A stretch of 28,965 nucleotides of DNA from Lentisphaerae bacterium GWF2_44_16. Its GTDB lineage: Bacteria > Verrucomicrobiota > Lentisphaeria > Victivallales > GWF2-45-14. Shown here one piece after another: positions 8,667 through 28,884 of the stretch. The stretch covers positions 1 through 28,965 of the forward strand of contig MHBF01000149.1 of assembly GCA_001803225.1 (NCBI GenBank). The letters are read 5' to 3'. The translations under genes and the position numbers were made by a program. The notes under the pieces are model-generated. The model made no database searches, was not told the origin of the DNA, and saw only the letters and a list, made by a program, of their open reading frames with translations. The stretch's first letter is position 1. Each line of letters begins with the position of its first letter.

Positions 8667-8678
8667 GGAGGACATAAC

Positions 8679-10154
8679 ATGAGTATTAACGGATTTGTGA
8701 AATCAATACAAAACATTATGAGAGGAGATAGCGGTATCAATGGCGATGCGCAACGCATCGAACAAATGACCTCGCTTCTCTTTTTGAAAGTCTATGATGT
8801 CAAAGAAGGGGATTGGGAGTTTCATGATGAAAACTATGTATCCATCATTCCAGAAAAACTGAGATGGCGGAATTGGGCAAAGGACAAAAAAGACGGAAAA
8901 GCAATGACGGGGCAAACACTGCTTGATTTCGTCAATAATGAGCTGTTTCCGTCGATTAAGGAACTCAAGATTACCGAGAGCACACCCATTAAGAAAGCCA
9001 TTGTCAAGGCCGTTTTTGAGGATAGCAACCAATACATGAAAGATGGAGTTCTCTTACGGAAAGTTGTTAACGAGATCGATTCAATCGAATTTGACGAGTA
9101 TAACGAAAAACACGCATTTGGTGAAATCTACGAAACCATTCTCAAGAGCCTTCAGAACGCAGGAAATGCAGGCGAATTCTATACTCCGCGTGCGGTAACT
9201 GATTTCATGGTCAAAATGATTGAACCGAAACTTGGCGAGAGAATCGCTGATTTTGCCTGTGGAACCGGCGGATTTTTGACATCATCGCTTAAGGTTCTTG
9301 AAGAACAAAAAAAGACGGTAACCGACATCGATTTATATAATCAAAGTGTCTTCGGAATTGAAAAAAAGCCACTTCCCTATTTGCTTGCAATAACAAACAT
9401 GCTTCTCCATGATATTGATAGTCCCCAAATATTCCACGGCAATTCTCTTGAACGAAATGTTCGGGAATATCAAGAAAACGAAAAGTTCGACGTTATTCTG
9501 ATGAATCCTCCTTATGGTGGAACAGAAAGCGAAAGCGTCAAAATGAATTTTCCAACCGATCTTCGCAGTAGCGAGACGGCCGACCTCTTTATGTCTCTTA
9601 TAATGTATCGTCTAAGGAAAAACGGAAGAGCTGCTGTCATTATTCCTGATGGGTTTCTATTTGGAACGGACAACGCAAAGTCAGCAATTAAAAAGAAATT
9701 GCTTGAAGAATTCAATTTGCACACAGTCGTTCGAATGCCTTCAAGCGTCTTTTCGCCCTATACACCCATCACAACAAATATCCTCTTTTTCGATAATTCA
9801 AAGAAGACCGATCAGGTATGGTTTTATCGTGTAGATATGCCAAAAGGATATAAGCACTTCTCAAAAACAAAACCCATGAAGGTTGATCATTTTGATGAAT
9901 GTGTTAGTTGGTGGAATAATCGAGAACAAAAAAAAGACAGTGTATCCGACGCACTCAAGGCTCAAGTATATAGCGTTTCAGAAATAATTGACAGAAGCTA
10001 TGATATCGATCTTTGTGGATATCCAACCATAGGAGAGGAAATTTTTTCGCCGGAAGAGACAATTCGACTTTTTCACGAAAAAAGAGATTCGCTAAATACG
10101 AAAATTGACAAAAGATTAGCAGAGATTGAAACTCTTTTGGGGCTGAAAAAGTGA
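8679..10154 (+). CDS. hsdM: Type I restriction-modification N6-adenine DNA methyltransferase (HsdM).
   Basis: Strong RBS AGGGAGG precedes the ATG. AdoMet-binding motif FACGTGGFL and catalytic NPPYGG. HsdM N-terminal domain. Its stop overlaps the hsdS GTG start. Confidence 0.92.
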   Translation: MSINGFVKSIQNIMRGDSGINGDAQRIEQMTSLLFLKVYDVKEGDWEFHDENYVSIIPEKLRWRNWAKDKKDGKAMTGQTLLDFVNNELFPSIKELKITESTPIKKAIVKAVFEDSNQYMKDGVLLRKVVNEIDSIEFDEYNEKHAFGEIYETILKSLQNAGNAGEFYTPRAVTDFMVKMIEPKLGERIADFACGTGGFLTSSLKVLEEQKKTVTDIDLYNQSVFGIEKKPLPYLLAITNMLLHDIDSPQIFHGNSLERNVREYQENEKFDVILMNPPYGGTESESVKMNFPTDLRSSETADLFMSLIMYRLRKNGRAAVIIPDGFLFGTDNAKSAIKKKLLEEFNLHTVVRMPSSVFSPYTPITTNILFFDNSKKTDQVWFYRVDMPKGYKHFSKTKPMKVDHFDECVSWWNNREQKKDSVSDALKAQVYSVSEIIDRSYDIDLCGYPTIGEEIFSPEETIRLFHEKRDSLNTKIDKRLAEIETLLGLKK

Positions 10155-11629
10155 TAGCGTCATCATTGAAAAAATCAGCAATTCAAGCCGCGATTAAGGG
10201 AAAAACGACTCATCAACTTTCAACTGATGGAAATGCAAATGAATTGTTGACCAAAGTGAAAAATGAAATAATGCTTTTGGCGATGAGAAAGGATATAAAA
10301 AAGCCGAAAATAATGCCTCCAATTTCGGAAGAAGAGATTCCTTTTGAAATTCCAAACAATTGGCTTTGGGTCCGTTTGGGTGAAGTATCTTTCAATCATG
10401 GACAAGTCACCCCTTTTTGCGAATTTACTTATATTGATATTTCGTCAATTGATAATTTGAATAATCGCCTTGGAAATATGACTACGATGAAACCGGAAAA
10501 TGCTCCATCACGAGCGCGAAAAATTGTGGTTGGAGGCGATGTAATTTACTCAACCGTAAGACCATATTTGCACAATATTTGTGTAATTGATAATAATATT
10601 AACCCGAGTCCAATTGCAAGCACGGGATTTTCTGTGATTTGTACGCCCTTTGAAATATTGAATATATACCTATTCTATGTTTTTTTATCGCCGATGTTTG
10701 ATAATTATGCGAATGACTTAGAAAATTCTAAGGGGGTAGCATACCCGGCGATAAATGATGATAAGTTTCAAAAAAGCTTAATTCCGCTTCCTCCACTTGC
10801 TGAACAATACCGAATCGTCCAACAATTAAAAGAGTTGTTGCCCAATCTAGAAAAACTTGAAAAGGACGAGATAAAGCTTGATGAATTGCAACAGCAATTC
10901 TCGATACAGATTAAGCAATCAATACTTCATCACGCAATCCAAGGAAAACTTACAATTCAATCTCTTGAGGACGGGAACGCAAAATTACTTGTCGATAAAA
11001 TACGAACTACTAGGAAAAAAAAGATTAATGAAGAAAAAGACCAAAATAAAACTTTGTTTTCGGCGATTTCGGAGGATGAAATTCCGTTTGAAATCCCTGA
11101 TAATTGGTGCTGGATTCGACTAGGTGAGATAGTGAAGATTATAGGAGGAACCTCTTACAATAAATCCCAAGAATCATCCCATGGAATTAGAGTTATTCGA
11201 GGGGGCAATATTATTCAGGGGGAATCTGAATTAGCAATTAAGGATGATGATATTTTTGTTGACCAAGTACTATTTGATTTTCAAAAACAAATTCAACTGA
11301 ATGATATTATTGTTGTTTCTTCTACCGGAAGCAAACAAGTAATAGGAAAAGCAGCAATTGTGAAAGAAGAGGTTGAAAATTGCCAAATCGGAGCATTTCT
11401 AAGGATTATTCGATCATACTCTCCGGAGGTTGTACCGTATATCTCATTGATATTCCAGTCAAATTATTATAGGGAGAGAATTCGTGATTTAATTTCCGGA
11501 ACAAATATTTTTAATATAAAGAATGATTTTTTTTCTTCAATGCCAATTCCACTCCCCCCTCTAGCCGAGCAAATCAGAATCGTTGAAAAGAATAGTGCCA
11601 TTCAATTTGTAATTCAGCAAATAAGCTAG
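10151..11629 (+). CDS. hsdS: Type I restriction-modification specificity subunit (HsdS) with two target-recognition domains.
   Basis: GTG start overlaps the hsdM stop (GTGA). Two TRDs, each followed by a conserved helical repeat (IPLPPLAEQYRIV... and PIPLPPLAEQIRIV...). EIPFEIPxNWxWxRLGE is duplicated at the start of each TRD. Confidence 0.85.
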   Translation: MIASSLKKSAIQAAIKGKTTHQLSTDGNANELLTKVKNEIMLLAMRKDIKKPKIMPPISEEEIPFEIPNNWLWVRLGEVSFNHGQVTPFCEFTYIDISSIDNLNNRLGNMTTMKPENAPSRARKIVVGGDVIYSTVRPYLHNICVIDNNINPSPIASTGFSVICTPFEILNIYLFYVFLSPMFDNYANDLENSKGVAYPAINDDKFQKSLIPLPPLAEQYRIVQQLKELLPNLEKLEKDEIKLDELQQQFSIQIKQSILHHAIQGKLTIQSLEDGNAKLLVDKIRTTRKKKINEEKDQNKTLFSAISEDEIPFEIPDNWCWIRLGEIVKIIGGTSYNKSQESSHGIRVIRGGNIIQGESELAIKDDDIFVDQVLFDFQKQIQLNDIIVVSSTGSKQVIGKAAIVKEEVENCQIGAFLRIIRSYSPEVVPYISLIFQSNYYRERIRDLISGTNIFNIKNDFFSSMPIPLPPLAEQIRIVEKNSAIQFVIQQIS

Positions 11630-11673
11630 CGTTTTTGCCGTACCTTCTTCATTCGATAAAAGGAGTATTACAT

Positions 11674-12576
11674 ATGACCAGTAAAGAAAGCCCAGAATCC
11701 TTAATTAAATTAGACCCAAAGATTTTCTCTTCCGCCCATATAAACTTCTTTTTAGGTGCGGGAGTAAACGGATCATCATTTCCACAAATGTCTGGTTTTA
11801 AGGAAACATTGAGCAAAGCTGTTGAATATTTGGGTAAACCAATTGTGAGTTTTGAATCCGATATAGAGAGTCTATCCGAAGGCAAAAAGAAAGTCGTATT
11901 AAACGTTTTCAAAAAGGAACTAGAGAAGTTCTCAAACGATATTGACTTTGAATCAGCGTCAATAAAAGATATTGAGTCAATGTTTCAAGGTGTGAATTCT
12001 CTCATTCTTGAGTCCGAAAACAGAACACTGACAATGAAACAGGTAAATATCTATACGACTAATTATGATTGTATAGTTGAAAAAACTCTTAATAAAATTG
12101 GATTATTATGTAATGTTCTGTCTTCGAGCAATCTTGAAAGCCGAGACAAGTTTTTTGAGTTAATTGGGTATGACTACGGGATAAAAAAATACATTCCGAC
12201 TTTTTTGGTTTCTAAAATTCACGGAGACATCGATAATCCCGTTTTACCTAGCAAAAACAAGTATGATGAAGCGTTGGAAGCAAAACGATTTGAGATTTTA
12301 TTCAGAATGAAGTCACAATTGTCACGTTTCAATTCGGTACTTATTGTTATTGGTTATTCGGGAAATGATAGACACATTAATGGTATTATTAAAGATTGTC
12401 TTTCATTTGGATTAACAGTTTATTGGTTTAGGTATGCTTCGACAGAGAAAATACCAGATGAATTTATTCAAAAAATCTTCATCATCGATCAACCAGACCA
12501 ACAAAAACAGGAAAACACGACAAAACTATTCTGTGATATGGTGAATAAAACATGGGAAAAACCGTTGGAAGAATAA
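11674..12576 (+). CDS. SIR2-like (SIR2_2 family) NADase-type protein, the Sir2 component of the Sir2-HerA defense system.
   Basis: AAAGGAG RBS sits 6 nt upstream of ATG 11674. The track's upstream TTG start at 11635 is rejected. Motifs FFLGAGVNGSSFP, TTNYDCIVE and KIHGDID match the SIR2-like Gly-rich/N-D/H catalytic pattern. The stop overlaps the herA start by 25 nt. Confidence 0.75.
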   Translation: MTSKESPESLIKLDPKIFSSAHINFFLGAGVNGSSFPQMSGFKETLSKAVEYLGKPIVSFESDIESLSEGKKKVVLNVFKKELEKFSNDIDFESASIKDIESMFQGVNSLILESENRTLTMKQVNIYTTNYDCIVEKTLNKIGLLCNVLSSSNLESRDKFFELIGYDYGIKKYIPTFLVSKIHGDIDNPVLPSKNKYDEALEAKRFEILFRMKSQLSRFNSVLIVIGYSGNDRHINGIIKDCLSFGLTVYWFRYASTEKIPDEFIQKIFIIDQPDQQKQENTTKLFCDMVNKTWEKPLEE

Positions 12577-14306
12577 TTGAGGTCAAAGGATTGTCGGTCA
12601 AAGCAAGGCTTAACGAATTGCTTCCTCCATATTTAGTTAAAAATGGCTCATACGAGAATTCGCCTAAAATAAACGGATTCCTGAAATCAAAAGTCGGCCT
12701 AGATACGATAATTTGTCAAGTGGTCGGGGAAATAAGTGAAGAGAAAAACGGAATAGTTGAAGGACATGTACTTGAACTTCAAGTTAAGGGATACATATCT
12801 GGAAAATCATTCATTCAAGGGTTAAGAATGCTACCTATCGTCTCTGCTTCTGTACAACTGCTTGATGATGTTGATATGTTGTCTATTTATAACGACAAAG
12901 CCGAGAAAACCATTGATATTGGTAACGATTTATTCGATATAAACAAACCAATCAAAGTCAATATTGATAACTTGATACCGTCCCATATAGGAGTATTCGG
13001 TAACACGGGATCAGGAAAGTCGAACACTCTGACAAGAATACTTCGAGAATATGAAAGTATTATATGTCAATCCAAAACCAATAGAGGAAAATTCATTGTT
13101 TTTGACATAAATAATGAGTATACAAAAAACGCGATTTGTGATGAAAGCAAAAAAACAATTTATCGATTAAAGACCCGCTCAAACAGCGGAGACAAAGTCC
13201 CGTTAAACATCACCTCTTTGACGGAAGACAACTTTGTTGTGCTTATGAATGCCTCTGAAAAAACTCAAGTTCCTGCAATTAAAAATGCGTATAAATGGGC
13301 TTTTGCGAGCGACGAAGATCGACGAGAAAAATCGTATTACCTTAATCAAGTCAAATCTATGCTGACCAATGCTAAAAAGTCTTTGTTTAATTCCATGAGG
13401 CACTATCTGAAAGACTATTTTTCAAACATTGATCATTTTAAGTATCACACATTACAAAATAATTTCTTTTTTGATGATGGACACTCGCGAATATACATAG
13501 AAAACTCTCTTTTTAATGTGATGCTTAATTCAATTGATCTTGATTTGCCAATCGAGCCACTTGACAGATTCATATTTGAATTGTATTTTGCAGTCGCTCA
13601 AGAAAACGAAAACGGAGTTCAACTGGACTTCATGATGCCACTCATTTCAAGGGCAAACAAACTTCTTTCTGACTTTAAGAAGGTATTTGATTTTTCCATA
13701 AGATCTGACGACAAGAACATTATTTTCAATAAGAAGAATATTTGCGTTATTCAATTAGGCGATGTAAACAAAGATATGAAAGAGATTATTCCGTCCCTTA
13801 TTTCGAGCACTATCTTCGATTCTTTATCTCAAAAGAAAGATGATAAAGGAGAGATTGTCCAAATAATAAGTATTGTGGTTGATGAAGCTCATAACATACT
13901 GTACGATGAACCCGGGCAGACAGCTTCACATACAAAAGTACTTGAAGTATTTGAAAAAATTGTTAAAGAAGGTCGAAAATTTGGGTGCTTTTTAATGCTT
14001 GCAAGTCAAAGACCAAGCGACATTTCTCAAACCATAATTTCCCAACTTCATAATTACTTTATTCACAAGTTGGTTAACCCCTCTGATATTCAAAAAATTC
14101 GTAAAGCGGTTGCTTACCTTGATGAAAATTCTATGGATTTTCTGACGGTACTTGCACCTGGTGAGTGTATTGTCTCTGGAACGGCATTTCAAATGCCAAC
14201 ATTTCTTTATGTAACTCAAGTCAACTTGGAAAACAGACCTAACAGCGAAAATGTGAAACTCTTTGGAAATAATGGACTATTTATCAGAGACAATGTTGAC
14301 GAATAG
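12552..14306 (+). CDS. herA: HerA-like helicase/ATPase, partner of the SIR2 protein.
   Basis: N-terminal HAS-barrel-like MGKTVGRIIEVKG. Walker A GVFGNTGSGKSNT and Walker B IVVDEAHN. Size about 584 aa. Translationally coupled to the upstream SIR2 gene. Confidence 0.8.
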   Translation: MGKTVGRIIEVKGLSVKARLNELLPPYLVKNGSYENSPKINGFLKSKVGLDTIICQVVGEISEEKNGIVEGHVLELQVKGYISGKSFIQGLRMLPIVSASVQLLDDVDMLSIYNDKAEKTIDIGNDLFDINKPIKVNIDNLIPSHIGVFGNTGSGKSNTLTRILREYESIICQSKTNRGKFIVFDINNEYTKNAICDESKKTIYRLKTRSNSGDKVPLNITSLTEDNFVVLMNASEKTQVPAIKNAYKWAFASDEDRREKSYYLNQVKSMLTNAKKSLFNSMRHYLKDYFSNIDHFKYHTLQNNFFFDDGHSRIYIENSLFNVMLNSIDLDLPIEPLDRFIFELYFAVAQENENGVQLDFMMPLISRANKLLSDFKKVFDFSIRSDDKNIIFNKKNICVIQLGDVNKDMKEIIPSLISSTIFDSLSQKKDDKGEIVQIISIVVDEAHNILYDEPGQTASHTKVLEVFEKIVKEGRKFGCFLMLASQRPSDISQTIISQLHNYFIHKLVNPSDIQKIRKAVAYLDENSMDFLTVLAPGECIVSGTAFQMPTFLYVTQVNLENRPNSENVKLFGNNGLFIRDNVDE

Positions 14307-14397
14307 TAAGTCTGTCTTGCTATGTTTTTTTCACGGTATTCACAAGTCAAAAAACCATATGCCCTTCTTGTCGCATCGAAAACTGCAGTTATAGAAT

Positions 14398-14458
14398 TAT
14401 GTTATTTTGTGACGTTTTTCAACTCGATAATAGCAATATGTCTCTTTGACTTCAACGA
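14398..14458 (+). promoter_or_regulatory. Copy (a) of a roughly 60-bp repeated promoter-like module (ATGTTATTtTgTGACg...AATAGCAAT...CTTTGACTTCAACG).
   Basis: Aligns over its full length with the copies at 16113, 19042 and 19122. Carries a -35-like TTGACA/GTGACG and a -10-like TAGCAAT about 17 nt downstream. The first mobile-element copy begins 73 bp downstream, and the next same-strand gene is the 174-aa ORF at 15379. Confidence 0.4.
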
Positions 14459-14530
14459 TGAGGAGAACCATCGTTTTTCATGTTTCTTCATGACAGACGA
14501 CGCCACATAATGTGGATATATCTTTCTGAT

Positions 14531-15079
14531 TGCATATACCGACCGACTTGAGCCACCGAACCGACGAGGGTTGAGCCACGAGACCGATGGCGTGAGCCAC
14601 AAATTCCATCACATATTCAACGTATTGCATTTTGTGCACAAAGTGCTCGTTGTAATCCTTAGGGAATGTGGCGAACGGATTTGTAGGTTTCTGGTTTTTT
14701 CTATGAGACTGTACTATTTGTATTGAAGATTTTTCTTTATCGATTTGTCTCTATGTTCCAGTCTTTTTGTAGTAAGCTATGCAGAACTGCGTATTATCCA
14801 CGTTTTTGACTTTTTCAACCCTTCGTTTCTGGCACGTCCAACAAAAATTGATACCTTTGTCTTGCGTCCAACGAAGTACATATATCGACGTATTACAGAG
14901 ACTGGTGTGGCAGTTAAGCGTACCCATCATAGTCGACATAAACGTATATATAGGGTAGATGCGAATCAAAAAAATACCCTCCAAAGGGTGGCTCCCACTT
15001 GTCGGATTGATGGCTCATTTTCATCGGAAGGGTGGCTCACTCTCGTCGGTCGGTGGCTCAAAGTGCGTCGGAATATCCA
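14531..15079 (+). mobile_element. 549-bp non-autonomous (MITE-like) transposable element, copy 1, with Tn7/Mu-like ends.
   Basis: Perfect 5-bp direct repeat CTGAT at 14526-14530 and 15080-15084. Termini are 5'-TG...CA-3' with imperfect inverted repeats of about 27 bp (TGCATATACCGACCGACTTGAGCCACC vs TGGATATTCCGACGCACTTTGAGCCACC). Subterminal GTGGCTCA/TGAGCCAC motifs recur with 22-bp period, 3 at the left end and 4 at the right. About 90% identical to the inverted copy at 28277-28836. No intact transposase ORF. Confidence 0.7.
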
Positions 15080-15378
15080 CTGATATTTCTGACAAGTTTC
15101 CAGCTTCTTAATAAGTTGACTAGATGGGTTGCGTTATTCAAAGGCTGTCAGGCATATATCTATAGTATATTTGACGGCTTCCTCAAAGACGATGGCCCTT
15201 CATTCGGGTTTCCATCTTCACTTTGGGGGATGTTGTGTTTCTGGGACTTATGCAGAAAAAAACGATTAGTCAAAATCGCCTCAAGCATCCTTAAAACTAG
15301 AAAATGCACCAAAATCAATAATATGGAAACATAACAATTTCAGTGTTTTTATGATGGCAAGGAGGGCTTTTAGTCTAT

Positions 15379-15903
15379 ATGACATCGGAATCAATACGAG
15401 AGAAGTTGGAGTCCCTAACGAAAGAGGAATTGATTGATCTTTTCACAAATCTTATTCATCAAAACGATACAGTAGAAGCGTTTTTGATGAATCGTCTTTT
15501 TGGTGCGAAGGACAACTATGTAGTGGTTCATAAAAAGATTGAAAAGATGATGTCGAATCAATTTGGCGAATATCAGAAAGCCTTCAAGCTGTTCGATACG
15601 TATATCAAGTCCTCATCAAATTCCACGCATTCGTTGGAGTTGTCATGCGACTTCATGGAGTGGTTGATGGAAGAGGCGGATACGTACTCAGAAACATTTC
15701 CGGACACGTTAATTAAAATCATCACGTACGTTTATGAGATCGGAGTTGTTTTAGCTGCTCAGGTTAAAAATGATAATCAAACAAGACGTTTACATACTAT
15801 CTTGGGAGTGAATCGCTTTGATGAAGATATTAAAGAAACATTAAGCGGAATCTATTATGATTACCTGAATGATCCTGACGACGTTTCCCCGGCGGAGCGA
15901 TGA
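15379..15903 (+). CDS. Hypothetical protein, 174 aa.
   Basis: AAGGAGGG lies upstream of the ATG. The ORF is uninterrupted. No recognisable motif. Promoter module (a) lies upstream at 14398-14458, with the mobile-element copy 1 inserted between the module and the gene. Confidence 0.55.
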   Translation: MTSESIREKLESLTKEELIDLFTNLIHQNDTVEAFLMNRLFGAKDNYVVVHKKIEKMMSNQFGEYQKAFKLFDTYIKSSSNSTHSLELSCDFMEWLMEEADTYSETFPDTLIKIITYVYEIGVVLAAQVKNDNQTRRLHTILGVNRFDEDIKETLSGIYYDYLNDPDDVSPAER

Positions 15904-16112
15904 TGTGTAAGCCTTATATAGGAGGTTTGTATTGTCGAATCGATATTAAGAAAGTGTGTTATTGAGTCGGGGTCATAGCCGGCTCCTGCGTTATTGCCAT
16001 TGAATCGAAGCAATGTAGATCCAAAATACTTATGCTCTTTCTTTACATTTTCCCATTGCTCTCAAACATTTGACCTCTCTGACTTCATCACTATGTATAG
16101 AAATAGAATCAG

Positions 16113-16170
16113 GTTATTTTTCGACATTTTCCAACCCCCAAAAATAGCAATTAACGTCACTGATTTCAAT
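16113..16170 (+). promoter_or_regulatory. Copy (d) of the repeated promoter-like module, upstream of the 139-aa/CHAT operon.
   Basis: GTTATTTTTCGACATTTTCC...AAAATAGCAATTAACGTCACTGATTTCAAT aligns with modules a, b and c. A partial extra copy (TGACCTCTCTGACTTCATCAC) lies at about 16070-16093. Confidence 0.4.
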
Positions 16171-16347
16171 TTAATACTGATATATTCTCTAGCGATATTG
16201 TCACACCTGATTTTCATTAAAGGTTACACCTAAGAAAGAAGAGCTATTATGGCAATTGTAGTATATCTAAAGTCCATTTGACGGCTCCAACTTCTATGAT
16301 GGTACTTTGTTTATTTACATAATATGCAACATATTAGGAGCGCAGTT

Positions 16348-16764
16348 ATGTTGACATGGTTAGGAATAAATATTAAAGGATTAACAATTAGAAATACGGC
16401 GATTGAATACCATAGATTCATTTTACCTTTCTATGAAGAGTGGATGAAAGAAATGTATTCTAAAGGGATTCAGAGCCAGTTGAAAAGCGAGAAAGATTAT
16501 GTCATATCAAAAATCAATGATGACTGGTTTGCAATCTATAACAGTGAAAAAAACGGCTATTTATTAATAGACAATCGAACACGCGAAATATCTTTCACAA
16601 GAAAGCCAAGACTTTTTATTGATACAAGAATTCCAATCAGTGATGTTCCGGAAGCAATAGCCGGTTTTGGGTATGCTATGGAAAAAACAGGGCATAAAGA
16701 TGAAATTCTAGAATGTAGTATCAAAGATGCCATTGAGTACTTAGAAGCAAATAATGAAGAATAA
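16348..16764 (+). CDS. Hypothetical protein, 139 aa, first gene of a two-gene operon with the CHAT protein.
   Basis: TAGGAG RBS sits 7 nt before ATG 16348. The track's 16324 start is less likely. Its stop overlaps the next gene's ATG by 11 nt. No recognisable motif. Confidence 0.55.
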   Translation: MLTWLGINIKGLTIRNTAIEYHRFILPFYEEWMKEMYSKGIQSQLKSEKDYVISKINDDWFAIYNSEKNGYLLIDNRTREISFTRKPRLFIDTRIPISDVPEAIAGFGYAMEKTGHKDEILECSIKDAIEYLEANNEE

Positions 16765-18847
16765 TATTGAACTTTCAACAAACGCGTCTTTTACTTATAT
16801 TATAATTTATTACTCTGATGACAAATTTGAAGATATCAAGCCGATTGTTTATGGTTCTCGAGAAGAATTCATTAAACAGCAAGTAACATATCACTTGTTC
16901 TCCGATGAACTATTTGGTTTTGTAGAGGTGTTTTCAAAAATCATACAGTTACCTAGGGGTCTTTTCGATCTATATAGAGTTTCGCTTCAAACACTAACAG
17001 ATGTAAAAAATCATTCACACAATATCATACACATTCCACAGTATCTTGTCGATGAGATTATTAGCAAAGCGTCTTTAGGGGTGAATGGTTTATATAATCC
17101 CACACTACTGATATATGATGAAAGGTGTTTGAATGAAGTATTAAGGTTTGAAGAAGTCATATCAACATCGTTAGGTAAAATGAGATTCGTGGAGTTTAAT
17201 GATTTAGTGCCTAAAGATATTTGGAAAAGACTTCAAGACCTACATAGTTTTGAACGTATGGAAAAACTACAAATACCGAATTTAGCTGAATTCCTTACAA
17301 ATGATGAACTGAATGTTTTGCCTTCTTTCTTTTACTTAATTCAAAATGACGATTTTGATAGATATGTGAGACGAGATAAAGATGCAGAAAGCGCATTCAG
17401 TTTCAATAATAGAATACTAGATGAATATAATATAAGAATGATGGCACTGAAATCAACAATTGAGAACAGAAGTGATGATAAAGAAAAGAATGACAATCAT
17501 TATAAAGAACAAGTAAAGTATCTACGACAGTACAATCATAAGCCTTTAGTAATTACATTGCCGGGAATCCCCAATCATCAAAAAAGGTGTTTTAGGAATA
17601 TAGATGTAAAAGAAAACAACATTACAGAGCGATATGCAATCAAAAATATTGGTCTTTATAGGGCAATGGCACGCAGCGCAGCTTATCTTGAATTAAATTA
17701 CATGGGACAAGAGCTGTATAACATTGTCTATAAGTTGGAGAAACATTGTATGGGTAATATTAGTAATAAGTTTGTCTGGAGGTCTCTTAAGCGGTTTGGA
17801 GATATTATCGCAAAGAAGTTAAGCGATCAAGAGTTGAAACTGCTTACGTATTCAAATCAAATCACGTATTACTCAGATTTACCATTGGGTATAGCAATAT
17901 TACCCGGCGCCACGTCACCACTTATCTGCTACACATCTTTATCAGCAAACAATTTAACCCCACTTTCAAGACTATATCAAACAGAATTACCAAAACAAGA
18001 GGGGTTTTTCATATCGGGCAAGTTGAAGGTAATAATTGCTGAGTGTATTAGCAAAGATGATAAAATACGAGAGTTATCAGATGCTGGTTGGAACGGGATT
18101 AGAGACAATTTTAGAAATAATGAGAACATAGATATTTTTATAGAAGAAACTAATACAGTCTATAAATTAAAAAAGTTTTTAAGGTCAAATACAGATGCGA
18201 ATGTGTTAATTATCTCGGCGCACGGACATTATGACCTTGTGAGAAAAATATCTGGGATTATTGTGGGTAACGAATTTTGGAATGCCAATGAAAATGATTT
18301 TAGAGTACCAAAAGTCGTAATCTTAAGTTCTTGCCATGTAAGTCCAAGAGGGGTTGGAGCAATTAATATTTCAGATTTATTTATCCGAACAGGAGCACAA
18401 AGTGTAATAGGTACACTGATACCGATTAATACATATAAAAACGCAATTTTCATGCAAAGATTATTGGTTTATATGATTGAGTCGTTTTCTATTGATAAAC
18501 CAAAATCACTTGATGAAATTTGGATGCATGTCGTTTCTAGCAATGCGATTTTAGAAATTGTTCATTCTTCAAAAAAATTAGTAAAATGGGCGTTTTCAAG
18601 AAATAGTGACTCTGTATCTCCAATCGAAAAGTTTATGTTGGGTGAGAGTAAAATTGATTTACGAGCAAAACACATATACCAAGATAGCGTGAATAGACTA
18701 ATTGACATTGCCAAAGGTGACGGTATGGATCATTATGTGAAAGCAGTAATAGATTCACAAGGATTTTTTCCTGAATCAATATTTTATATATTGTATGGAA
18801 AACCCGAGTTGATTTTATTTGGAAAAGGTATCAACAAGTTAGCTTAA
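16754..18847 (+). CDS. 697-aa protein with a C-terminal CHAT (caspase-like His/Cys protease) domain and an uncharacterised roughly 450-aa N-terminal region.
   Basis: Conserved CHAT dyad context: VLIISAHGHYD (His) and KVVILSSCHVS (Cys), about 45 aa apart. Translationally coupled to the upstream small gene. AT-rich and island-like. Confidence 0.75.
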   Translation: MKNNIELSTNASFTYIIIYYSDDKFEDIKPIVYGSREEFIKQQVTYHLFSDELFGFVEVFSKIIQLPRGLFDLYRVSLQTLTDVKNHSHNIIHIPQYLVDEIISKASLGVNGLYNPTLLIYDERCLNEVLRFEEVISTSLGKMRFVEFNDLVPKDIWKRLQDLHSFERMEKLQIPNLAEFLTNDELNVLPSFFYLIQNDDFDRYVRRDKDAESAFSFNNRILDEYNIRMMALKSTIENRSDDKEKNDNHYKEQVKYLRQYNHKPLVITLPGIPNHQKRCFRNIDVKENNITERYAIKNIGLYRAMARSAAYLELNYMGQELYNIVYKLEKHCMGNISNKFVWRSLKRFGDIIAKKLSDQELKLLTYSNQITYYSDLPLGIAILPGATSPLICYTSLSANNLTPLSRLYQTELPKQEGFFISGKLKVIIAECISKDDKIRELSDAGWNGIRDNFRNNENIDIFIEETNTVYKLKKFLRSNTDANVLIISAHGHYDLVRKISGIIVGNEFWNANENDFRVPKVVILSSCHVSPRGVGAINISDLFIRTGAQSVIGTLIPINTYKNAIFMQRLLVYMIESFSIDKPKSLDEIWMHVVSSNAILEIVHSSKKLVKWAFSRNSDSVSPIEKFMLGESKIDLRAKHIYQDSVNRLIDIAKGDGMDHYVKAVIDSQGFFPESIFYILYGKPELILFGKGINKLA

Positions 18848-19041
18848 AATAAAGTTGTACACCATATAGTTTGTCCGTGTAAAAAATGGCGATAGAACAG
18901 TTTCGTCATTGAATTCAGGGGAGATCATGGTATTCAAAGCGCTTAACGAAACGAACTTCAATGGAGTTTCCCTAAGCGCTAGGTTCGACGACTTCCATCG
19001 AAGTATCGAAATGCAGCATTATTGCTTTTTGATATAGCAAC

Positions 19042-19103
19042 ATGTTATTATTTGACAATTTTACGTCCTCGAAATATCAATAGACATCTTTGACTTCATC
19101 GAC
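19042..19103 (+). promoter_or_regulatory. Copy (b) of the repeated promoter-like module.
   Basis: ATGTTATTATTTGACAATTTTACGTCCTCGAAATATCAATAGACATCTTTGACTTCATCGAC. TTGACA, a 17-nt spacer, then TATCAAT. Confidence 0.4.
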
Positions 19104-19121
19104 ACCCGTAGACATAGTAAT

Positions 19122-19180
19122 ATGTTATTATTTGACATTTTCCGACACGGAAATAGCAATAAGCGTCACTGACTTCAACC
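19122..19180 (+). promoter_or_regulatory. Copy (c) of the repeated promoter-like module, in tandem with copy (b), upstream of the 257-aa gene.
   Basis: ATGTTATTATTTGACATTTTCCGACACGGAAATAGCAATAAGCGTCACTGACTTCAACC. A further partial copy (CATAGCAATTAAGCGTT) lies at about 19285-19305. Confidence 0.4.
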
Positions 19181-19357
19181 CTGTACAGAAACATTCGACA
19201 AATAAAACCGAAATCGAAATCAACACTCGCTGACGATGAGGTGTTTTTGATTTCTTCTATATGCAGCAATAACAACAATTGTATAATTGTGATAATCCGG
19301 CATAGCAATTAAGCGTTCTATTATTTTGTGGAATTTGAAATATAGAGGTGATTGTGA

Positions 19358-20131
19358 ATGGAAATGAATGTTAAGGCATTTATCAAATATGAATCAAAGA
19401 GATTATTCGAAGATCGAGTGCTAGAACCCATTAAAATCGAACCCCTAAGAACATATCAACGACACTCGGCTCCCGATGTGTTTGGGATAGCCTTCAACAT
19501 TGCCTTCGATTACGAGTTATTTAAAAGGGGACTAATAAGCAATTATGCACCTCATCAAGACTATATCGCTCCCCTATATGATGAAGAAATTGCTGCATTT
19601 GATAAAGTGGAAAAGAAACAGGAATTGAACGCGCGGGATCTGCTTATACTGGTTAATCATGAAAACCTAAGCAGATTCGAGAATAACATGGCGATGTATA
19701 TGCAATTATCTTCTCATAAGTTCTCGCCCGCCGACGAAGAGAACATGAGGCTTGATCTTACGTTGATGTCCAGTTGTATTCACGAATTCTTCTCAAGCGT
19801 CTCTAAAACAGACAAGTTTATTCAGAACCCCGATTTTTTTTCAAAGCGTGTAGATATTTATGGTGACGGCGACTTCATCATGAACGACATCTTGTTCGAA
19901 ATCAAATGCGTGTCGAGCGATAACATTGAAACAAAGACTCAAAAACAGTTGATTTTATATAAACTGATAAATGATATCGATGAAGACAAAAGAAAGTACA
20001 CAATTAACAAATTTGGGTATTACAATCCACTTAAGGGGCAAATACATACATGGGATGCCATCATTCCGGAAAGTGTAATGAATCATTGGAGAGAATACGT
20101 GAGTTTGACTAAGAAAACAACCAGTCGATGA
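19358..20131 (+). CDS. Hypothetical protein, 257 aa, with a possible PD-(D/E)xK-like motif.
   Basis: AGAGGTG RBS sits 7 nt before the ATG. The D...EIK motif (VDIYGDGDFIMNDILFEIKC) is reminiscent of restriction-endonuclease-fold nucleases. This is a weak, unverified inference. Confidence 0.55.
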   Translation: MEMNVKAFIKYESKRLFEDRVLEPIKIEPLRTYQRHSAPDVFGIAFNIAFDYELFKRGLISNYAPHQDYIAPLYDEEIAAFDKVEKKQELNARDLLILVNHENLSRFENNMAMYMQLSSHKFSPADEENMRLDLTLMSSCIHEFFSSVSKTDKFIQNPDFFSKRVDIYGDGDFIMNDILFEIKCVSSDNIETKTQKQLILYKLINDIDEDKRKYTINKFGYYNPLKGQIHTWDAIIPESVMNHWREYVSLTKKTTSR

Positions 20132-20290
20132 CCGCGAAAGTGTCAGAGATACTTAATGTCAGATTCCGAGAGTATTATTGAGCGTTCCCGTTCATTATGA
20201 TGCACAAAGCCGCCTTCAAAGTGATTAGAGTAACACACTACGGAGGAAGGACGACACCGCCTCGCTAATGAATTGATGTGATTATTTCCG

Positions 20291-21442
20291 ATGAATCTCA
20301 ATGCTAGTGCAGTTAACGGTTTATTGGGGGATAGAAAGGTCGCGTCGCTTATGGAATACAAAGGAATAACAGATTCAACGAACGATCACGGCGGCGTCAT
20401 AGTGCTGGCTCTTGGGAAAACCTTGAACAGTACGCAGATGGCAACGATTAGCAATCGTTTTCAAGTCTACCGGGACTTCCAAGTTTTTCGCACCGACAGG
20501 ATTCCAAATATATCCGCCGGATACCACCGCATCGTGGGCGAAATGATTCAAGTGGATTGCGAACTGGGCGGAAATGGACTAGGATATCAAGACGGCTCCT
20601 CATTCACCTACATCAACAACAACGGCTCATGGGCGGGCGGCGTCAAATTACCCGCAGAAATCTTCAATGAGTATAAGTTACACGGCTATGATGCGTCATT
20701 CGGCACTGTGGAATATGACGGTCATCACATCAACTGCCAAGAGTTTTTCGACGGAGATACGGCGGGACTCCCCGATTTGACGCATGATCCCGATAACTTG
20801 ATTCTCCTCAAAAGACCGCACGTGGAAGACAACAACGTCAATCAACTTCCGCTCGCCGATAATATCGATCGAATTGAACGTAGTTATCGGACTGGGATTT
20901 CCAACCAATTCTTTTTGGGATTGCTGATAACGTCGCTTTTAGGCTTTCTCTTTGGATTCATCATCGAAGTCGCAACTGGGCTGATATCGAACCGAAGAAA
21001 ACATAGTTTGGTGTCGGTTGCCAATCAACTCAAAGCCCTTCTCAAACCCGGTGTGAAGATGGGTGTTTCCACCATGCTGCTCGGGCTTGGCTTGAATCTG
21101 GTAATGCAGTTGGTTTTTCTATTTCTGTTCGGCGTTCTACACTTCAACTCAGGAGAGGTCGGAATCCATTTCATCTCTTTGTTGGTTTATGTGGTGCTAT
21201 CCTTTGGGGTTTACACACTTGGAACCCTCAAGAAGAAGCATACGCTAGAATCCTTTTTCGTGGGGTATTTGCCAATTCTATCCACAATTGGCTTGATGTC
21301 GGCTGTTGGGATCATCTCGCTGTTCGTGACCGGACTATGGAAAATTCTCGGATGGATGATATCGCTTGGGATCATCATGGTCTTGCGTTTGGGGAATGTC
21401 AATCAAACCGGTTCGAACGATGTCGGCGTAAGTGTCAACTAG
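20291..21442 (+). CDS. Hypothetical membrane protein, 383 aa: roughly 200-aa soluble N-terminal domain plus 4-5 C-terminal transmembrane helices.
   Basis: Long hydrophobic stretches occur after about aa 200 (FFLGLLITSLLGFLFGFII, VSTMLLGLGLNLVMQLVFLFLFGVL, FISLLVYVVLSFGVYTLG, LPILSTIGLMSAVGIISLFVTGLW). GC content is intermediate. The start is uncertain, with an alternative M at 20351. Confidence 0.5.
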   Translation: MNLNASAVNGLLGDRKVASLMEYKGITDSTNDHGGVIVLALGKTLNSTQMATISNRFQVYRDFQVFRTDRIPNISAGYHRIVGEMIQVDCELGGNGLGYQDGSSFTYINNNGSWAGGVKLPAEIFNEYKLHGYDASFGTVEYDGHHINCQEFFDGDTAGLPDLTHDPDNLILLKRPHVEDNNVNQLPLADNIDRIERSYRTGISNQFFLGLLITSLLGFLFGFIIEVATGLISNRRKHSLVSVANQLKALLKPGVKMGVSTMLLGLGLNLVMQLVFLFLFGVLHFNSGEVGIHFISLLVYVVLSFGVYTLGTLKKKHTLESFFVGYLPILSTIGLMSAVGIISLFVTGLWKILGWMISLGIIMVLRLGNVNQTGSNDVGVSVN

Positions 21443-21675
21443 AATACATCGTGGGGTTGACGCCGAATCACCGTATTAGGAACTTATCGAAATAATGTCA
21501 ACGCGTTTATCACTGGGGATTTGGAGTGCGGATAGTAGAAAGCGTGGAAATCCCATTTGGCGCACAGTATGATCTTCGCTCTAAAAATTAAAAAACGGAA
21601 GGTAGTTCAATAAGCTCAACGGCGCTATCGGCGAAAACATGTCAATGTATGTTTATATCATATTGGAGGAACCCT

Positions 21676-22512
21676 ATGATCGGCGCAATCATTGGTGATA
21701 TCGTCGGCTCGCGATATGAGTTCGACAACATCAAGACGAAAGATTTCCCTTTTTTCCATGCCATCTGCCGTTTTACCGACGACAGCGTCATGACGATCGC
21801 CGTCGCAACAGCCTTGCTCCAATGCGACGGCGATTATTCCGATCTTTCCAATATTGTCGTGAAGACGATGCAGACGATCGGCCGCGACTATCCTTATTGC
21901 GGATACGGCGGATATTTCCGTCGGTGGGTGACGATGAAGGATCCCAAGCCTTACAACAGTTTCGGGAACGGCGCCCCCATGCGCGTTTCGGCGTGTGGGA
22001 TCGTCGGTCGTTCCATCGAAGAGACGATCCTGCTCGCGCGCAAGGTCACCGAAGTCACCCACAACCATCCCGAAGGCATGAAGGCCGCTGAAGCGGTCGC
22101 CCTTGCCGTCTTCCTGGCGCGCACCGGGAAATCGAAGAAAGAAATTCACGACGCTCTGAACAGACCGTATTACCATCTCGACTTCACTTTGGACGAGATT
22201 CGGGATTCCTATGGATTCGACGAATCTTCTCAGGGAACAACGCCCCAGGCACTCACCGCCTTCTTCGAATCGACCGATTTCGAAGACGCGGTGCGCAATG
22301 CCGTCTCCATCGGCGGCGACTCCGATACCGTCGCCGCCATCACCGGGTCCATCGCCGCCGCCTATTATGGCGTTCCGTCCCGGATGATCGAGAAAGCCTA
22401 TTGGTATATGGATCGGAATCTGGGCGGATTCATGTCCCTGTTCGAACAAAAGCATCCTTTCAAAAGAACTGATGCTGAGACGCTAAAGGAAATCCCGATC
22501 TACGCAAAATAG
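21676..22512 (+). CDS. ADP-ribosylglycohydrolase family protein (DraG/ARH-like).
   Basis: GGAGG sits 6 nt before ATG 21676. Motifs GAIIGDIVGSRYEF, TDDSVMT, GNGAPMR and GGDSDTVAAITGSIAAAYYG match the ARH fold. High GC. Confidence 0.85.
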   Translation: MIGAIIGDIVGSRYEFDNIKTKDFPFFHAICRFTDDSVMTIAVATALLQCDGDYSDLSNIVVKTMQTIGRDYPYCGYGGYFRRWVTMKDPKPYNSFGNGAPMRVSACGIVGRSIEETILLARKVTEVTHNHPEGMKAAEAVALAVFLARTGKSKKEIHDALNRPYYHLDFTLDEIRDSYGFDESSQGTTPQALTAFFESTDFEDAVRNAVSIGGDSDTVAAITGSIAAAYYGVPSRMIEKAYWYMDRNLGGFMSLFEQKHPFKRTDAETLKEIPIYAK

Positions 22513-22550
22513 CGGTGTCGAAACGCAAGTGTTCATCTGCGGAGGATACA

Positions 22551-23027
22551 ATGATGAGAAAAACCGTGTATGTAAGGGATGTATCGGAACAGTTTGGTCG
22601 AGGATGGTATATTTTCAAAGGATTGGGCATTCTCGATTTTTTACCATTCTTTCCGCAATCAAAGAACACATCCATATATCAGGATGTACCCGTTGACAGT
22701 GAGGGCGGATTATCAATGAAACTGGGCACCCTGAAATCGATAAAAAAATACCGGAGCAGACTTGGCATGAACTCGGGAACCGACATCTTGCTCATCGCCG
22801 ACACCGACAAACCGAAGATTCTCGGTTTTTCGCTGGAGGAGATTCGGACATTGACCAAAACGGATGACAATGTCATGGAAGGAATTCTACTGTATTGCGA
22901 CATTCACGACATTGATTGGAACGCAGTATGCTATTTCCGTGAAACTTCCACCGCGGAAATGTACATGAATCATCTGCGGTCACAAACCGACTTGAGAGTC
23001 TCCAATGATTGGAACGATTTTTCGTGA
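22551..23027 (+). CDS. Hypothetical protein, about 158 aa, immediately downstream of the ADP-ribosylglycohydrolase gene.
   Basis: GGAGG sits 5 nt before ATG 22551. The ORF is uninterrupted. No recognisable motif. Confidence 0.45.
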   Translation: MMRKTVYVRDVSEQFGRGWYIFKGLGILDFLPFFPQSKNTSIYQDVPVDSEGGLSMKLGTLKSIKKYRSRLGMNSGTDILLIADTDKPKILGFSLEEIRTLTKTDDNVMEGILLYCDIHDIDWNAVCYFRETSTAEMYMNHLRSQTDLRVSNDWNDFS

Positions 23028-28231: not shown

Positions 28232-28276
28232 ATATACGCAAACGCATATATATCAAAACGAAACACAGAACAAATA
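28232..28276. repeat. 45-bp direct repeat (left copy) abutting the second mobile-element copy.
   Basis: ATATACGCAAACGCATATATATCAAAACGAAACACAGAACAAATA is identical to 28840-28884. A third partial copy (ATATACGCAAACGCATAT) lies at about 28882-28899. Confidence 0.6.
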
Positions 28277-28836
28277 TGGATATTCCGACGCACTTTGAGC
28301 CATCGGACCGACGAGAGTGAGCCACCCTTCCGATGAAAATGAGCCATCAATCCGACAAGTGTGAGCCACCCTTTGGAGGGTATTTATTTGATTCGCATCT
28401 ACCCTCTATTTGCGATTTTGTCGACTATGGTGGGCACGCTTAACTGCCACACAGGTCTTTGTAATACGTCGATAAACTTACTTCGTTGGACGCAAGACAT
28501 AGTGATCAATTCATCGCGATCTTTGTTGGCCGTGCCAGAAACGAAAGGTTGAAAAGGCCAAAAATGTGGATAATACGCAGTTCTGCATAGCTTTCTCCAA
28601 AAAGACTGGAACAAAGAAACAAATCGATAAAGAAAAATCTTCAATCCAAATAGTACAGTCTCATAGAAAAAACCAGAAACCTACAAATCCGTTCGCCACA
28701 TTCCCTAAGGATTACAACGAGCACTTTGTGCACAAAATGCAATACGTTGAATATGTGATGGAATTGGTGGCTCACGCCATCGGTCTCGTGGCTCAACCCT
28801 CGTCGGTCCGGTGGCTCAAATCGGTCGGTATATGCA
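28277..28836 (-). mobile_element. Second, inverted and diverged copy (about 90% identity by eye) of the 549-bp Tn7/Mu-like non-autonomous element.
   Basis: The reverse complement aligns end-to-end with 14531-15079, including the TG...CA termini and the 22-bp-phased GTGGCTCA subterminal repeats (4 and 3). Flanking 5-mers are AAATA and CAAAT, an imperfect target duplication. Internal indels disrupt the small ORF seen in copy 1. Confidence 0.7.
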
Positions 28837-28839
28837 CAA

Positions 28840-28884
28840 ATATACGCAAACGCATATATATCAAAACGAAACACAGAACAAATA
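28840..28884. repeat. 45-bp direct repeat (right copy) flanking the second mobile-element copy.
   Basis: Identical to 28232-28276. Separated from the element end by CAA. Confidence 0.6.

What the first reader, a model, noticed from the sequence alone, without database searches (positions are those of the whole stretch)
14531..15079. Non-autonomous 549-bp transposable element with Tn7/Mu-like end architecture and a perfect 5-bp target-site duplication, inserted between a promoter module and its gene.
The element is bounded by 5'-TG...CA-3' and imperfect 27-bp inverted repeats. It is flanked by an exact CTGAT duplication at 14526-14530 and 15080-15084. It carries arrays of a 22-bp-phased subterminal motif (GTGGCTCA plus CGTCGG), 3 at one end and 4 at the other. 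Tn7 ends have 3 (left) and 4 (right) 22-bp TnsB-binding sites, and Tn7 and Mu both make 5-bp duplications. A second, roughly 90% identical, inverted copy at 28277-28836 shows the family has transposed. Neither copy encodes a transposase, so an autonomous TnsB/MuA-like partner should exist elsewhere in the genome. Copy 1 sits 73 bp downstream of promoter module (a) and upstream of the 174-aa gene, so it may have uncoupled that gene from its promoter.
Basis: partly seen in the sequence, partly recalled or inferred. Interest (0 to 1): 0.65.

Follow-up and report, generated by a model that had tools for sequence, protein, structure and literature searches.

The report
IS21-family miniature transposon, two copies
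The 549-bp sequence is a real gene-less "hitch-hiker" transposon (a MITE) present twice in the window, but its ends belong to an IS21-type insertion sequence (IstA transposase plus IstB ATPase), not to Tn7 or Mu; it is an ordinary kind of mobile DNA from a family in which such mini-elements seem not to have been described.

Summary
Window 14531-15079 (549 bp) and 28277-28836 (560 bp, inverted, about 92% identical) are two copies of one element. Homology stops exactly at TGCATATACC... and ...GGAATATCCA. Copy 1 is flanked by an exact CTGAT duplication and copy 2 by CAAATA (6 bp, not 5). Fourteen CCGAY-N4-6-KGAGCCA units at 21-23 bp phase lie only in the two copies (0.02 expected by chance).

The family assignment changes. 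A scan of public genomes and metagenomes found 2,631-2,635-bp elements with identical 13-bp termini, the same phased units and 5-bp duplications. These encode IstA (IS21 transposase) and IstB (IS21 helper AAA+ ATPase). The autonomous elements carry 4+5 units, so the Tn7-like 3+4 count is coincidental.

An "empty site" in a related genome (81.5% identical, a single CTGCT) confirms the copy-1 insertion. More copies of the same MITE and other short derivatives occur elsewhere.

I conclude it is a non-autonomous IS21-family MITE, mobilised in trans by IstA/IstB. That system is mechanistically akin to MuA/MuB and TnsB/TnsC. A partner in the same genome was not shown. The promoter-uncoupling idea is untested and weakened. 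It is a new member of a known kind, of modest interest.

The parts
14526..14530 (.). Left copy of the 5-bp target-site duplication CTGAT of MITE copy 1
   Evidence: The empty-site homologue L033 carries a single CTGCT here.
14531..15079 (-). MITE copy 1 (549 bp). In the IS21 convention (IRL upstream of istA) it reads on the minus strand: IRL at the 15079 end and IRR at the 14531 end.
   Evidence: Boundaries come from the alignment to copy 2 and to the autonomous IS L005:4347-6980. No conserved ORF.
14531..14600 (+). IRR-type end. Terminus TGCATATACCGAC plus three phased IstA-site-like units (14539-14555, 14561-14578, 14584-14599).
   Evidence: It is 84% identical to the IRR of L005 over 70 nt, and the terminal 13 nt are identical.
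14601..14986 (.). Non-coding core of 386 bp, with no similarity to the IS interior and of unknown origin.
   Evidence: Searches found no blastn or tblastn match to the IS or to IstB. The core is 68-93% conserved among MITE copies, against 92-98% for the ends.
14987..15079 (-). IRL-type end. Terminus TGGATATTCCGAC plus four phased units (15054-15071, 15033-15049, 15011-15027, 14989-15005).
   Evidence: It is 82-84% identical to the IRL of L005, and the terminal 13 nt are identical.
15080..15084 (.). Right copy of the target-site duplication CTGAT of copy 1
28271..28276 (.). Left copy of the 6-bp duplication CAAATA of MITE copy 2
   Evidence: It lies at a unit junction of a 42-bp tandem repeat.
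28277..28836 (+). MITE copy 2 (560 bp), inverted relative to copy 1. IRL is at 28277 with four units and IRR is at 28836 with three units.
28837..28842 (.). Right copy of the 6-bp duplication CAAATA of copy 2

Best explanation
Both sequences are copies of a miniature, non-autonomous transposable element (MITE) of the IS21 family.

**Anatomy.** Each copy keeps only the two transposon ends. These are a TG...CA terminus followed by three (IRR) or four (IRL) direct repeats of a roughly 19-bp site, CCGAY-N4-6-TGAGCCAC, at 21-23 bp phase. They surround a 386-bp non-coding core.

**Inferred mechanism.** This is taken from structural and biochemical work on IS5376/IS21. An IstA DDE transposase supplied in trans by a full-length relative binds the repeats with its HTH domains. 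It forms a tetramer that pairs the two ends and exposes the 3'-OH of the terminal CA. IstB, an AAA+ ATPase, captures and bends target DNA and activates IstA. Strand transfer at staggered positions 5 bp apart (sometimes 6-7) and subsequent repair give the flanking duplications.

**History of the two copies.** Copy 1 landed in the conserved 5' leader of a 174-aa gene in a defence island. Copy 2 landed independently in a 42-bp tandem repeat.

**Shown:** the ends, the repeats, the duplications, the empty site, multiple copies, and autonomous IstA/IstB elements with the same termini.

**Inferred:** trans-mobilisation by IstA/IstB, and any effect on gene expression.
For: 1. **Autonomous relatives.** A genome-collection scan with the end pattern found L005:4347-6980. 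This is a 2,634-bp element with the termini TGCATATACCGAC and TGGATATTCCGAC and an exact 5-bp duplication AAGCC. It carries two overlapping genes.
2. **Gene identity.** IstA matches NCBIfam transpos_IS21 at 252 bits (cut-off 160), plus Pfam rve and Mu-transpos_C_2. IstB matches IS21_help_AAA at 224.5 bits (cut-off 200) and Pfam IstB_IS21 at E = 1e-59. A close relative of this IstA (P0001, 92% identical) matches the solved IS5376 IstA structures 8B4H and 8Q4D.
3. **More full-length copies.** L004, L023, L025, L017, L021, L032, L038 and others have the same end architecture.
4. **More copies of the MITE itself.** L018:705-1265 (561 bp) and L012 (partial) share the same core in unrelated contexts.
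5. **Duplications across the family.** Seven are exact 5-bp duplications (window copy 1, L005, L013, L016, L017, L025, L038). Two are 6 bp (window copy 2, L019) and one is 7 bp (L032).
6. **Empty site.** L033:3631-4518 aligns at 81.5% with window 14454-14530 joined directly to 15085-15896, with a single pentamer at the junction.
7. **Selection on the ends.** The ends are 92-98% conserved against 68-93% for the core, as expected if transposase recognition is selected.
8. **Match to published IS21 rules.** These are CA termini, TIRs built from two or more direct repeats about 23 bp apart, 5-bp direct repeats, and a requirement for two complete repeats (PMC10122671, PMC11208146).
Against: - No IstA/IstB gene lies in the window, and none was shown in the same genome. 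The full-length elements come from other MAGs (Ca. Izemoplasmatales) and metagenomes. The window's 174-aa protein is identical to one from a Lentisphaerae MAG.
- Apart from the identical 13-nt tips, the MITE ends are only 81-84% identical to the best IS ends found. The true cognate partner may not have been sampled.
- Four family copies (L004, L018, L021, L023) show no flanking duplication.
- Mobilisation in trans has not been tested experimentally.
- The core shows no trace of IS sequence, so its origin by internal deletion is not demonstrated.
Confidence: 0.9

Rival explanations
1. The element is a non-autonomous Tn7-like or Mu-like element whose ends are bound by a TnsB/MuA-family transposase, with 3 + 4 binding sites of 22 bp as in Tn7.
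For: The termini are TG...CA, the subterminal repeats are phased at 22 bp, copy 1 has 3 + 4 sites and the duplication is 5 bp. IstA itself carries a Mu-transposase C-terminal domain, and the literature describes it as organised like MuA and TnsB (PMC11208146).
Against: Every longer element found with these ends encodes exactly IstA + IstB. It is about 2.6 kb long and has no TnsA, TnsD/E, cargo or phage genes. The autonomous elements have 4 + 5 sites rather than 3 + 4. Duplications of 6 and 7 bp occur. Tn7-like ends typically start TGT, from my own knowledge, whereas these start TGC and TGG.
Confidence: 0.03
2. These are immobile relics of full-length IS21 copies that each decayed in place by internal deletion. 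They are not an element that moves as a miniature unit.
For: Other short derivatives in the family (L013, L019, L016) still contain a degraded 3' fragment of istB, so internal deletion does happen.
Against: Four copies share the same 386-bp non-IS core and the same 3 + 4 end structure. These are two in the window, L018 and L012, and they lie in different flanking sequences. The two window copies each have their own duplication. Independent in-place decay would not produce the same core repeatedly.
Confidence: 0.04
3. The two inverted copies act together as the arms of a 14.3-kb composite transposon (14531-28836) that brought in the genes between them.
For: The copies are inverted and bracket 13.2 kb. 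This stretch includes a higher-GC block at about 20-28 kb.
Against: The outer flanks do not match: CTGAT lies left of copy 1 and CAAAT right of copy 2. Instead each copy is bracketed by its own duplication. The L033 empty site shows that the sequence on both sides of copy 1 was contiguous before insertion. The copies therefore inserted separately. A later composite move is not excluded, but there is no evidence for one.
Confidence: 0.03

Closest known systems
IS21 family insertion sequences (IS21, IS5376; IstA transposase + IstB AAA+ ATPase)
   Same: - The termini are TG...CA.
- The terminal inverted repeats are built from direct repeats about 22-23 bp apart.
- Duplications are mostly 5 bp.
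- Full-length relatives of about 2.6 kb carry overlapping istA-istB genes.
-; PMC10122671, PMC11208146.
   Different: - The window element has no genes and is 549-560 bp long.
- The family found here carries more repeats per end than the two (L1/L2, R1/R2) described as typical. The autonomous copies have 4 + 5 and the MITE has 3 + 4.
- A family relative of this IstA (P0001, 92% identical to L005 IstA) matched IS5376 IstA only over residues 76-350 at 70.7 bits, so the relationship is distant.
Bacterial MITEs derived from other IS families (for example MITEPye1 from IS1182, PMC11578231; from my own knowledge also IS630- and IS5-derived MITEs such as RUP)
   Same: They are small, lack a transposase, share terminal repeats with an autonomous IS, are flanked by duplications, lie in intergenic regions and occur in several copies.
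   Different: - The parent system here needs two proteins, a transposase plus a dedicated AAA+ regulator.
- The ends are long arrays of sites (70-93 bp) rather than simple short inverted repeats.
- I found no paper describing an IS21-derived MITE.
Tn7 and Tn7-like elements; phage Mu
   Same: - Each end carries multiple transposase-binding repeats.
- The termini end in CA.
- Duplications are 5 bp.
- A transposase with a DDE core and beta-barrel works with an AAA+ target-capture partner (PMC10122671, PMC11208146).
   Different: - There is no TnsA, TnsD/E or cargo, and there are no phage genes.
- The partner proteins score as IS21 IstA and IstB.
- The number of sites and the length of the duplication vary within the family.

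Membership tests
MITE (non-autonomous miniature transposable element) | Small size and no transposase gene | tested here: met
   The copies are 549 and 560 bp. No open frame is conserved between copies, there is no Pfam hit and there is no IstA/IstB similarity.
MITE (non-autonomous miniature transposable element) | Terminal inverted repeats shared with an autonomous element | tested here: met
   Both 13-nt termini are identical to those of L005:4347-6980. The same unit arrays follow them.
MITE (non-autonomous miniature transposable element) | Flanking target-site duplication and an empty site | tested here: met
   Copy 1 is flanked by CTGAT/CTGAT and copy 2 by CAAATA/CAAATA. L033 is an empty-site homologue with a single pentamer.
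MITE (non-autonomous miniature transposable element) | Several copies at different sites | tested here: met
   There are two in the window plus L018 and L012 in other metagenome contigs. The copy number in the host genome is not known.
MITE (non-autonomous miniature transposable element) | Mobilisation in trans by the autonomous element's transposase | not testable with these tools
   This needs a transposition assay or strain comparisons. A partner in the same genome was not found, because the host genome is not in the collections scanned.
IS21 family | Autonomous members encode IstA (DDE transposase) followed by IstB (AAA+ helper) | tested here: met
   This was tested on the relatives with the same ends. 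IstA scores 252 bits against a cut-off of 160, and IstB 224.5 bits against 200. The same gene pair occurs in L004, L017, L021, L023, L025, L029, L032, L038 and L041.
IS21 family | TG...CA termini, with inverted repeats made of two or more direct repeats about 23 bp apart | tested here: met
   The MITE has 3 + 4 units and the IS has 4 + 5, at 21-23 bp spacing. The published rule is in PMC10122671.
IS21 family | Short target duplication, 5 bp in many members (4-8 bp across the family, from my own knowledge of ISfinder) | tested here: met
   Seven duplications are 5 bp, two are 6 bp and one is 7 bp. The 5-bp rule for IS5376 is in PMC10122671 and PMC11208146.
IS21 family | IstA binds the repeats of this element | not testable with these tools
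   This needs binding or integration assays with the cognate IstA.
Tn7-like transposons | Autonomous members encode TnsB with TnsC (and TnsA and target selectors) | tested here: not met
   All elements with these ends are about 2.6 kb long and encode only IstA and IstB.
Tn7-like transposons | Fixed asymmetric end architecture (3 left and 4 right TnsB sites in Tn7) and a strict 5-bp duplication | tested here: not met
   The 3 + 4 count holds only for the MITE and L016. The autonomous elements have 4 + 5. Duplications of 6 and 7 bp occur.
Mu-like transposable phages | MuA/MuB with phage genes between the ends | tested here: not met
   No phage genes lie between matching ends. The partner's only Mu-related feature is the Mu-transpos_C_2 domain, which IstA shares.

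The most novel reading that the evidence does not exclude
This may be the first documented MITE family of the IS21 family. If so, an IstA/IstB two-protein transposition system can be parasitised in trans by gene-less elements. These elements carry only 3-4 of the 4-5 phased IstA sites per end. The family would span hosts binned to different phyla: a Lentisphaerae MAG for the MITE and Izemoplasmatales MAGs for the IS. The natural series of derivatives with 3+4, 3+6, 4+5 and 4+5 sites would then act as a ready-made deletion series. It could show how many repeats IstA needs and what the extra repeats do.
Probability: 0.4. Interest if true: 0.35.

Novelty: new member of a known kind. Interest (0 to 1): 0.3.

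Why it matters
**Annotation.** Two unannotated repeats in a defence island are now explained as IS21-derived MITEs. The contig break at one of them in an independent assembly (L027) is explained too.

**Transposon biology.**
- MITEs of the IS21 family do not appear in the literature I could search.
- Recent cryo-EM work on IstA/IstB left the role of repeats beyond R1/R2 open.
- This family has 4-5 repeats per end, and its natural derivatives have lost or gained units, so it offers test substrates.

**The host.** Copy 1 sits inside a conserved 370-nt leader of a defence-island gene and may alter its expression. That remains untested.

**Overall.** The mechanism is conventional and nothing here overturns current views.

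Tried and rejected
**Searches that found nothing**
- Similarity searches of the 549-bp element against the plasmid and phage collections gave no match.
- An Rfam scan of the window gave no family. A relaxed-threshold scan of the L033 leader gave only chance-level hits.
- The viral-contig scans with the end pattern and with the reconstructed empty site found nothing.

**The partner in the host genome**
- I tried to place the partner IS in the same sample as the window. I looked up close IstA proteins P0001, P0002, P0003, P0006, P0007 and P0008. All lie in other samples.
- Only a loose link emerged. P0003 and a homologue of the 174-aa gene come from JGI records of the same numbering series.
- The look-up of the 584-aa HerA-like protein (12552-14306) found no record.

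**Origin and content of the core**
- I looked for an IS or IstB relic in the MITE core with blastn and tblastn at relaxed thresholds and found none. L013, L019 and L016 do retain one.
- A coding role for the 112-aa and 77-aa open frames inside the element is rejected. The frames are not conserved between copies and have no Pfam hit.

**Other readings rejected**
- The composite-transposon reading is rejected because each copy has its own duplication.
- A 5-bp duplication for copy 2 is rejected because AAATA does not equal CAAAT. The exact match is the 6-bp CAAATA.

**Literature.** Four searches for an IS21-derived MITE found nothing relevant.

Full report
**1. What is in the sequence**

I read both regions and aligned 14501-15110 with the reverse complement of 28247-28866. 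Similarity starts exactly at TGCATATACC and ends exactly at GGAATATCCA, and the flanks are unrelated.

- Copy 1 is 14531-15079 (549 bp).
- Copy 2 is 28277-28836 (560 bp) and is inverted. It is 92.3% identical to copy 1 and carries a 10-bp indel.
- Copy 1 is bracketed by an exact CTGAT (14526-14530 and 15080-15084).
- Copy 2 is bracketed by an exact 6-bp CAAATA (28271-28276 and 28837-28842). A 5-bp reading does not fit copy 2.
- Copy 2 lies in a 42-bp tandem repeat. The two 47-nt perfect direct repeats at 28231-28277 and 28839-28885 are units of that array, and removing the element plus one CAAATA restores 2.45 tandem units.
- The pattern CCGAY-N4-6-KGAGCCA occurs 14 times in the 28,965-bp window. 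All 14 are inside the two copies, three at the TGC end and four at the TGG end. The chance expectation is 0.02. GAGCCA cores are 21-23 bp apart.

**2. Context**

The window is a defence island.
- It holds a type I restriction-modification system (6300-11629) and a SIR2-HerA pair (11635-14306).
- It also holds a CHAT-domain protein (16754-18847) and a large serine recombinase (3541-5424, minus strand).
- GC content rises from about 34% to about 50% near 20 kb.
- The 174-aa protein downstream of copy 1 is identical to a protein of 'Lentisphaerae bacterium GWF2_44_16'.
- No IstA- or IstB-like sequence is present in the window, and no Rfam family matches.

**3. The autonomous relative**

The plasmid and phage collections gave nothing. 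I then scanned the species-representative genome collection with ATATWCCGAYN{5,6}TGAGCCAYN{3,4}CCGAY. I estimated about one chance hit for this pattern. It returned six loci.

- L005, from a Candidatus Izemoplasmatales MAG, has two inverted matches. The element between them is L005:4347-6980 (2,634 bp).
- It starts TGCATATACCGAC and ends with the complement of TGGATATTCCGAC, the same 13-nt tips as the window element.
- It is flanked by an exact AAGCC duplication.
- It holds two overlapping genes. A 514-536-aa protein scores 252 bits on NCBIfam 'IS21 family transposase' (cut-off 160) and hits Pfam rve and Mu-transpos_C_2. A 256-aa protein scores 224.5 bits on 'IS21-like element helper ATPase IstB' (cut-off 200) and E = 1e-59 on Pfam IstB_IS21.
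- A close relative of this IstA, P0001 (92% identical), matches the solved IS5376 IstA structures 8B4H and 8Q4D.
- Close IstA relatives (73-92% identical) are found only in metagenome assemblies. Proteins around 60% identical are annotated as IS21-family transposases in Firmicutes.

**4. The wider family**

The same pattern in the JGI metagenome collection gave 19 loci. Together with look-ups of IstA relatives this yielded four groups.
- **Full-length elements:** L004, L023 and L025 at 86% identity to L005, L017 and L021 at 77%, and also L032, L038 and L041.
- **The window-type MITE in other contexts:** L018:705-1265 (561 bp, 75% identical over the full length) and L012 (partial, 81%).
- **Other short derivatives:** L013 and L019 (686 bp) and L016 (642 bp). 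These still carry a decayed 3' piece of istB.
- **A distant relative:** an IS21 element in Sediminibacterium (L003, 35% IstA identity) with a similar end motif.

The six complete autonomous copies whose units were counted all have four units at the end downstream of istB (IRR, TGC tip) and five at the end upstream of istA (IRL, TGG tip). Derivatives have 3+4, 3+6 or 4+5. The resemblance of '3 and 4' to Tn7 is therefore accidental.

Flanking duplications are exact and 5 bp in seven cases, 6 bp in two and 7 bp in one. Four copies have none.

Among window-type MITEs the ends are 92-98% identical and the core only 68-93%. This is the pattern expected if transposase recognition is under selection.

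**5. Empty site**

I joined window 14307-14530 to 15085-15903 and compared the result with loci that encode homologues of the 174-aa protein.
- L033, from a 2.0-Mb NCBI genome (OW818673.1), aligns from window 14454 straight across the junction to 15896. Identity is 81.5%, and a single CTGCT stands where the window has CTGAT-MITE-CTGAT. This confirms insertion with duplication.
- Each window copy has its own duplication and the outer flanks differ. The two copies therefore inserted separately and not as a composite transposon.

**6. How it most likely works**

The published IS21/IS5376 rules fit point by point.
- The terminal CA dinucleotide is the reactive end.
- The inverted repeats are composed of at least two direct repeats about 23 bp apart.
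- Two complete repeats are required for integration.
- The direct repeats flanking insertions are 5 bp.
- An IstA tetramer synapses two ends, and IstB decamers bend the target and switch IstA on (PMC10122671, PMC11208146).

I infer that the MITE is a substrate for IstA/IstB supplied in trans. This step, and the identity of the cognate partner, are not shown. The best IS ends found are 81-84% identical to the MITE ends beyond the identical tips, and no partner was placed in the same genome or sample. The origin of the core is unknown, since no IS or IstB trace was found in it.

**7. The promoter claim**

The 'promoter module' is real as a repeat. A bipartite motif of about 70 bp occurs at 14388-14458, 16100-16170, 19031-19102 and 19111-19181. 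It also occurs in other metagenome contigs upstream of an HTH/HipA gene pair.

Several points bear on the claim that copy 1 uncoupled the gene from it.
- L033 has the 174-aa gene with a conserved leader of about 370 nt and no such module.
- Copy 1 lies inside that leader, directly after a highly conserved block (14476-14525).
- It lies upstream of a second conserved block that holds a sigma70-like TTCAAA-18-TATAGT at 15137-15166.
- No terminator-like site on the plus strand lies within the element. The only one, at 14976-14989, is on the minus strand.

Whether expression is changed cannot be decided from sequence. Uncoupling from module (a) is not supported as stated.

**8. Comparison and novelty**

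The element is a MITE, which is a known kind, and it belongs by its ends to the IS21 family. It is not a Tn7-like or Mu-like element, although IstA/IstB work much like MuA/MuB and TnsB/TnsC. Four literature searches found no description of an IS21-derived MITE. The library searched lacks most subscription journals and ISfinder, so I rate it a new member of a known kind.

Two minor points of interest remain.
- The ends carry an unusually long array of 4-5 sites.
- The derivatives form a natural series with different numbers of sites.

**9. Verdict**

| Item | Verdict |
|---|---|
| Observation | Confirmed |
| Confidence that this is an IS21-family MITE | 0.9 |
| Interest | 0.3 |

Noticed in passing
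window 14388-14458, 16100-16170, 19031-19102, 19111-19181; also L034:5382-5438 and the matching positions in L035-L037: A bipartite intergenic module of about 70 bp. Its consensus is ...ATAGnAATATGTTATTATTTGACATTTTCCGACCCGGAAATAGCAATAnnCnTCTTTGACTTCAAC. It recurs upstream of several defence-island genes, and in unrelated metagenome contigs it lies upstream of an HTH/HipA pair. It could be a shared promoter or operator, but the function is untested.
   Followed up: partly
window 14454-14530 + 15085-15378; L033:3631-4000: The 174-aa gene, which has no known domain, has a 5' leader of about 370 nt that is as well conserved as the coding sequence (81%) in a different genome. The leader starts with a terminator-like hairpin at 14454-14475 and contains two nearly invariant blocks. 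There is no Rfam match and no conserved small ORF. MITE copy 1 interrupts it.
   Followed up: partly
window 28231-28276 and 28837-28904: A 42-bp tandem repeat (unit AATATACGCAAACGCATATATATCAAAACGAAACACAGAACA, about 2.45 units) near the end of the contig was the target of MITE copy 2. Its nature is unknown; it might be iterons or an attachment or replication region.
   Followed up: no
L013:168-853, L019:39-724, L016:3855-4496: Three other non-autonomous derivatives of the same IS21 group (642-686 bp) retain a decayed 3' fragment of istB and are flanked by 5-6-bp duplications. L019 has six units at its IRL end.
   Followed up: partly
L003:3430-5932 (Sediminibacterium MAG); L002, L010, L020, L022: Distant IS21 elements in Bacteroidota contigs (L003, 35% IstA identity) have ends with the same CCGAY-N5-TGAGCCAC unit and a TGYATATTCCGA tip. 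The IstA recognition motif therefore seems conserved far beyond the close family.
   Followed up: partly
L032:1339-3923, L041:1271-3923: More divergent full-length relatives show 7-bp flanking duplications: TAATAGG in L032, and ATAAGAT in L041 if one extra base is counted at each end. The stagger length therefore varies from 5 to 7 bp within one IS21 subgroup.
   Followed up: no
L027:1-58 (Logan SRR6487690 contig): An independent assembly of the same locus breaks 58 nt inside the right end of MITE copy 1. This fits the element being multi-copy in that sample.
   Followed up: no
window 14976-14989 (minus strand) and 28367-28380: A GC-rich hairpin followed by a T-run (ACCCTTTGGAGGGT ATTTTTTTGA) lies just inside the IRL unit array. 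It is oriented to stop transcription entering from outside that end. It is conserved in both window copies but not in L018.
   Followed up: no
window 1-28965: The island combines a type I restriction-modification system, SIR2-HerA, a CHAT/BovA-like protein, a PD-(D/E)XK-like protein (19358-20131), an ADP-ribosylglycohydrolase and a large serine recombinase (3541-5424, minus strand). GC jumps from about 34% to about 50% near 20 kb, which suggests a mosaic of horizontally acquired segments.
   Followed up: partly
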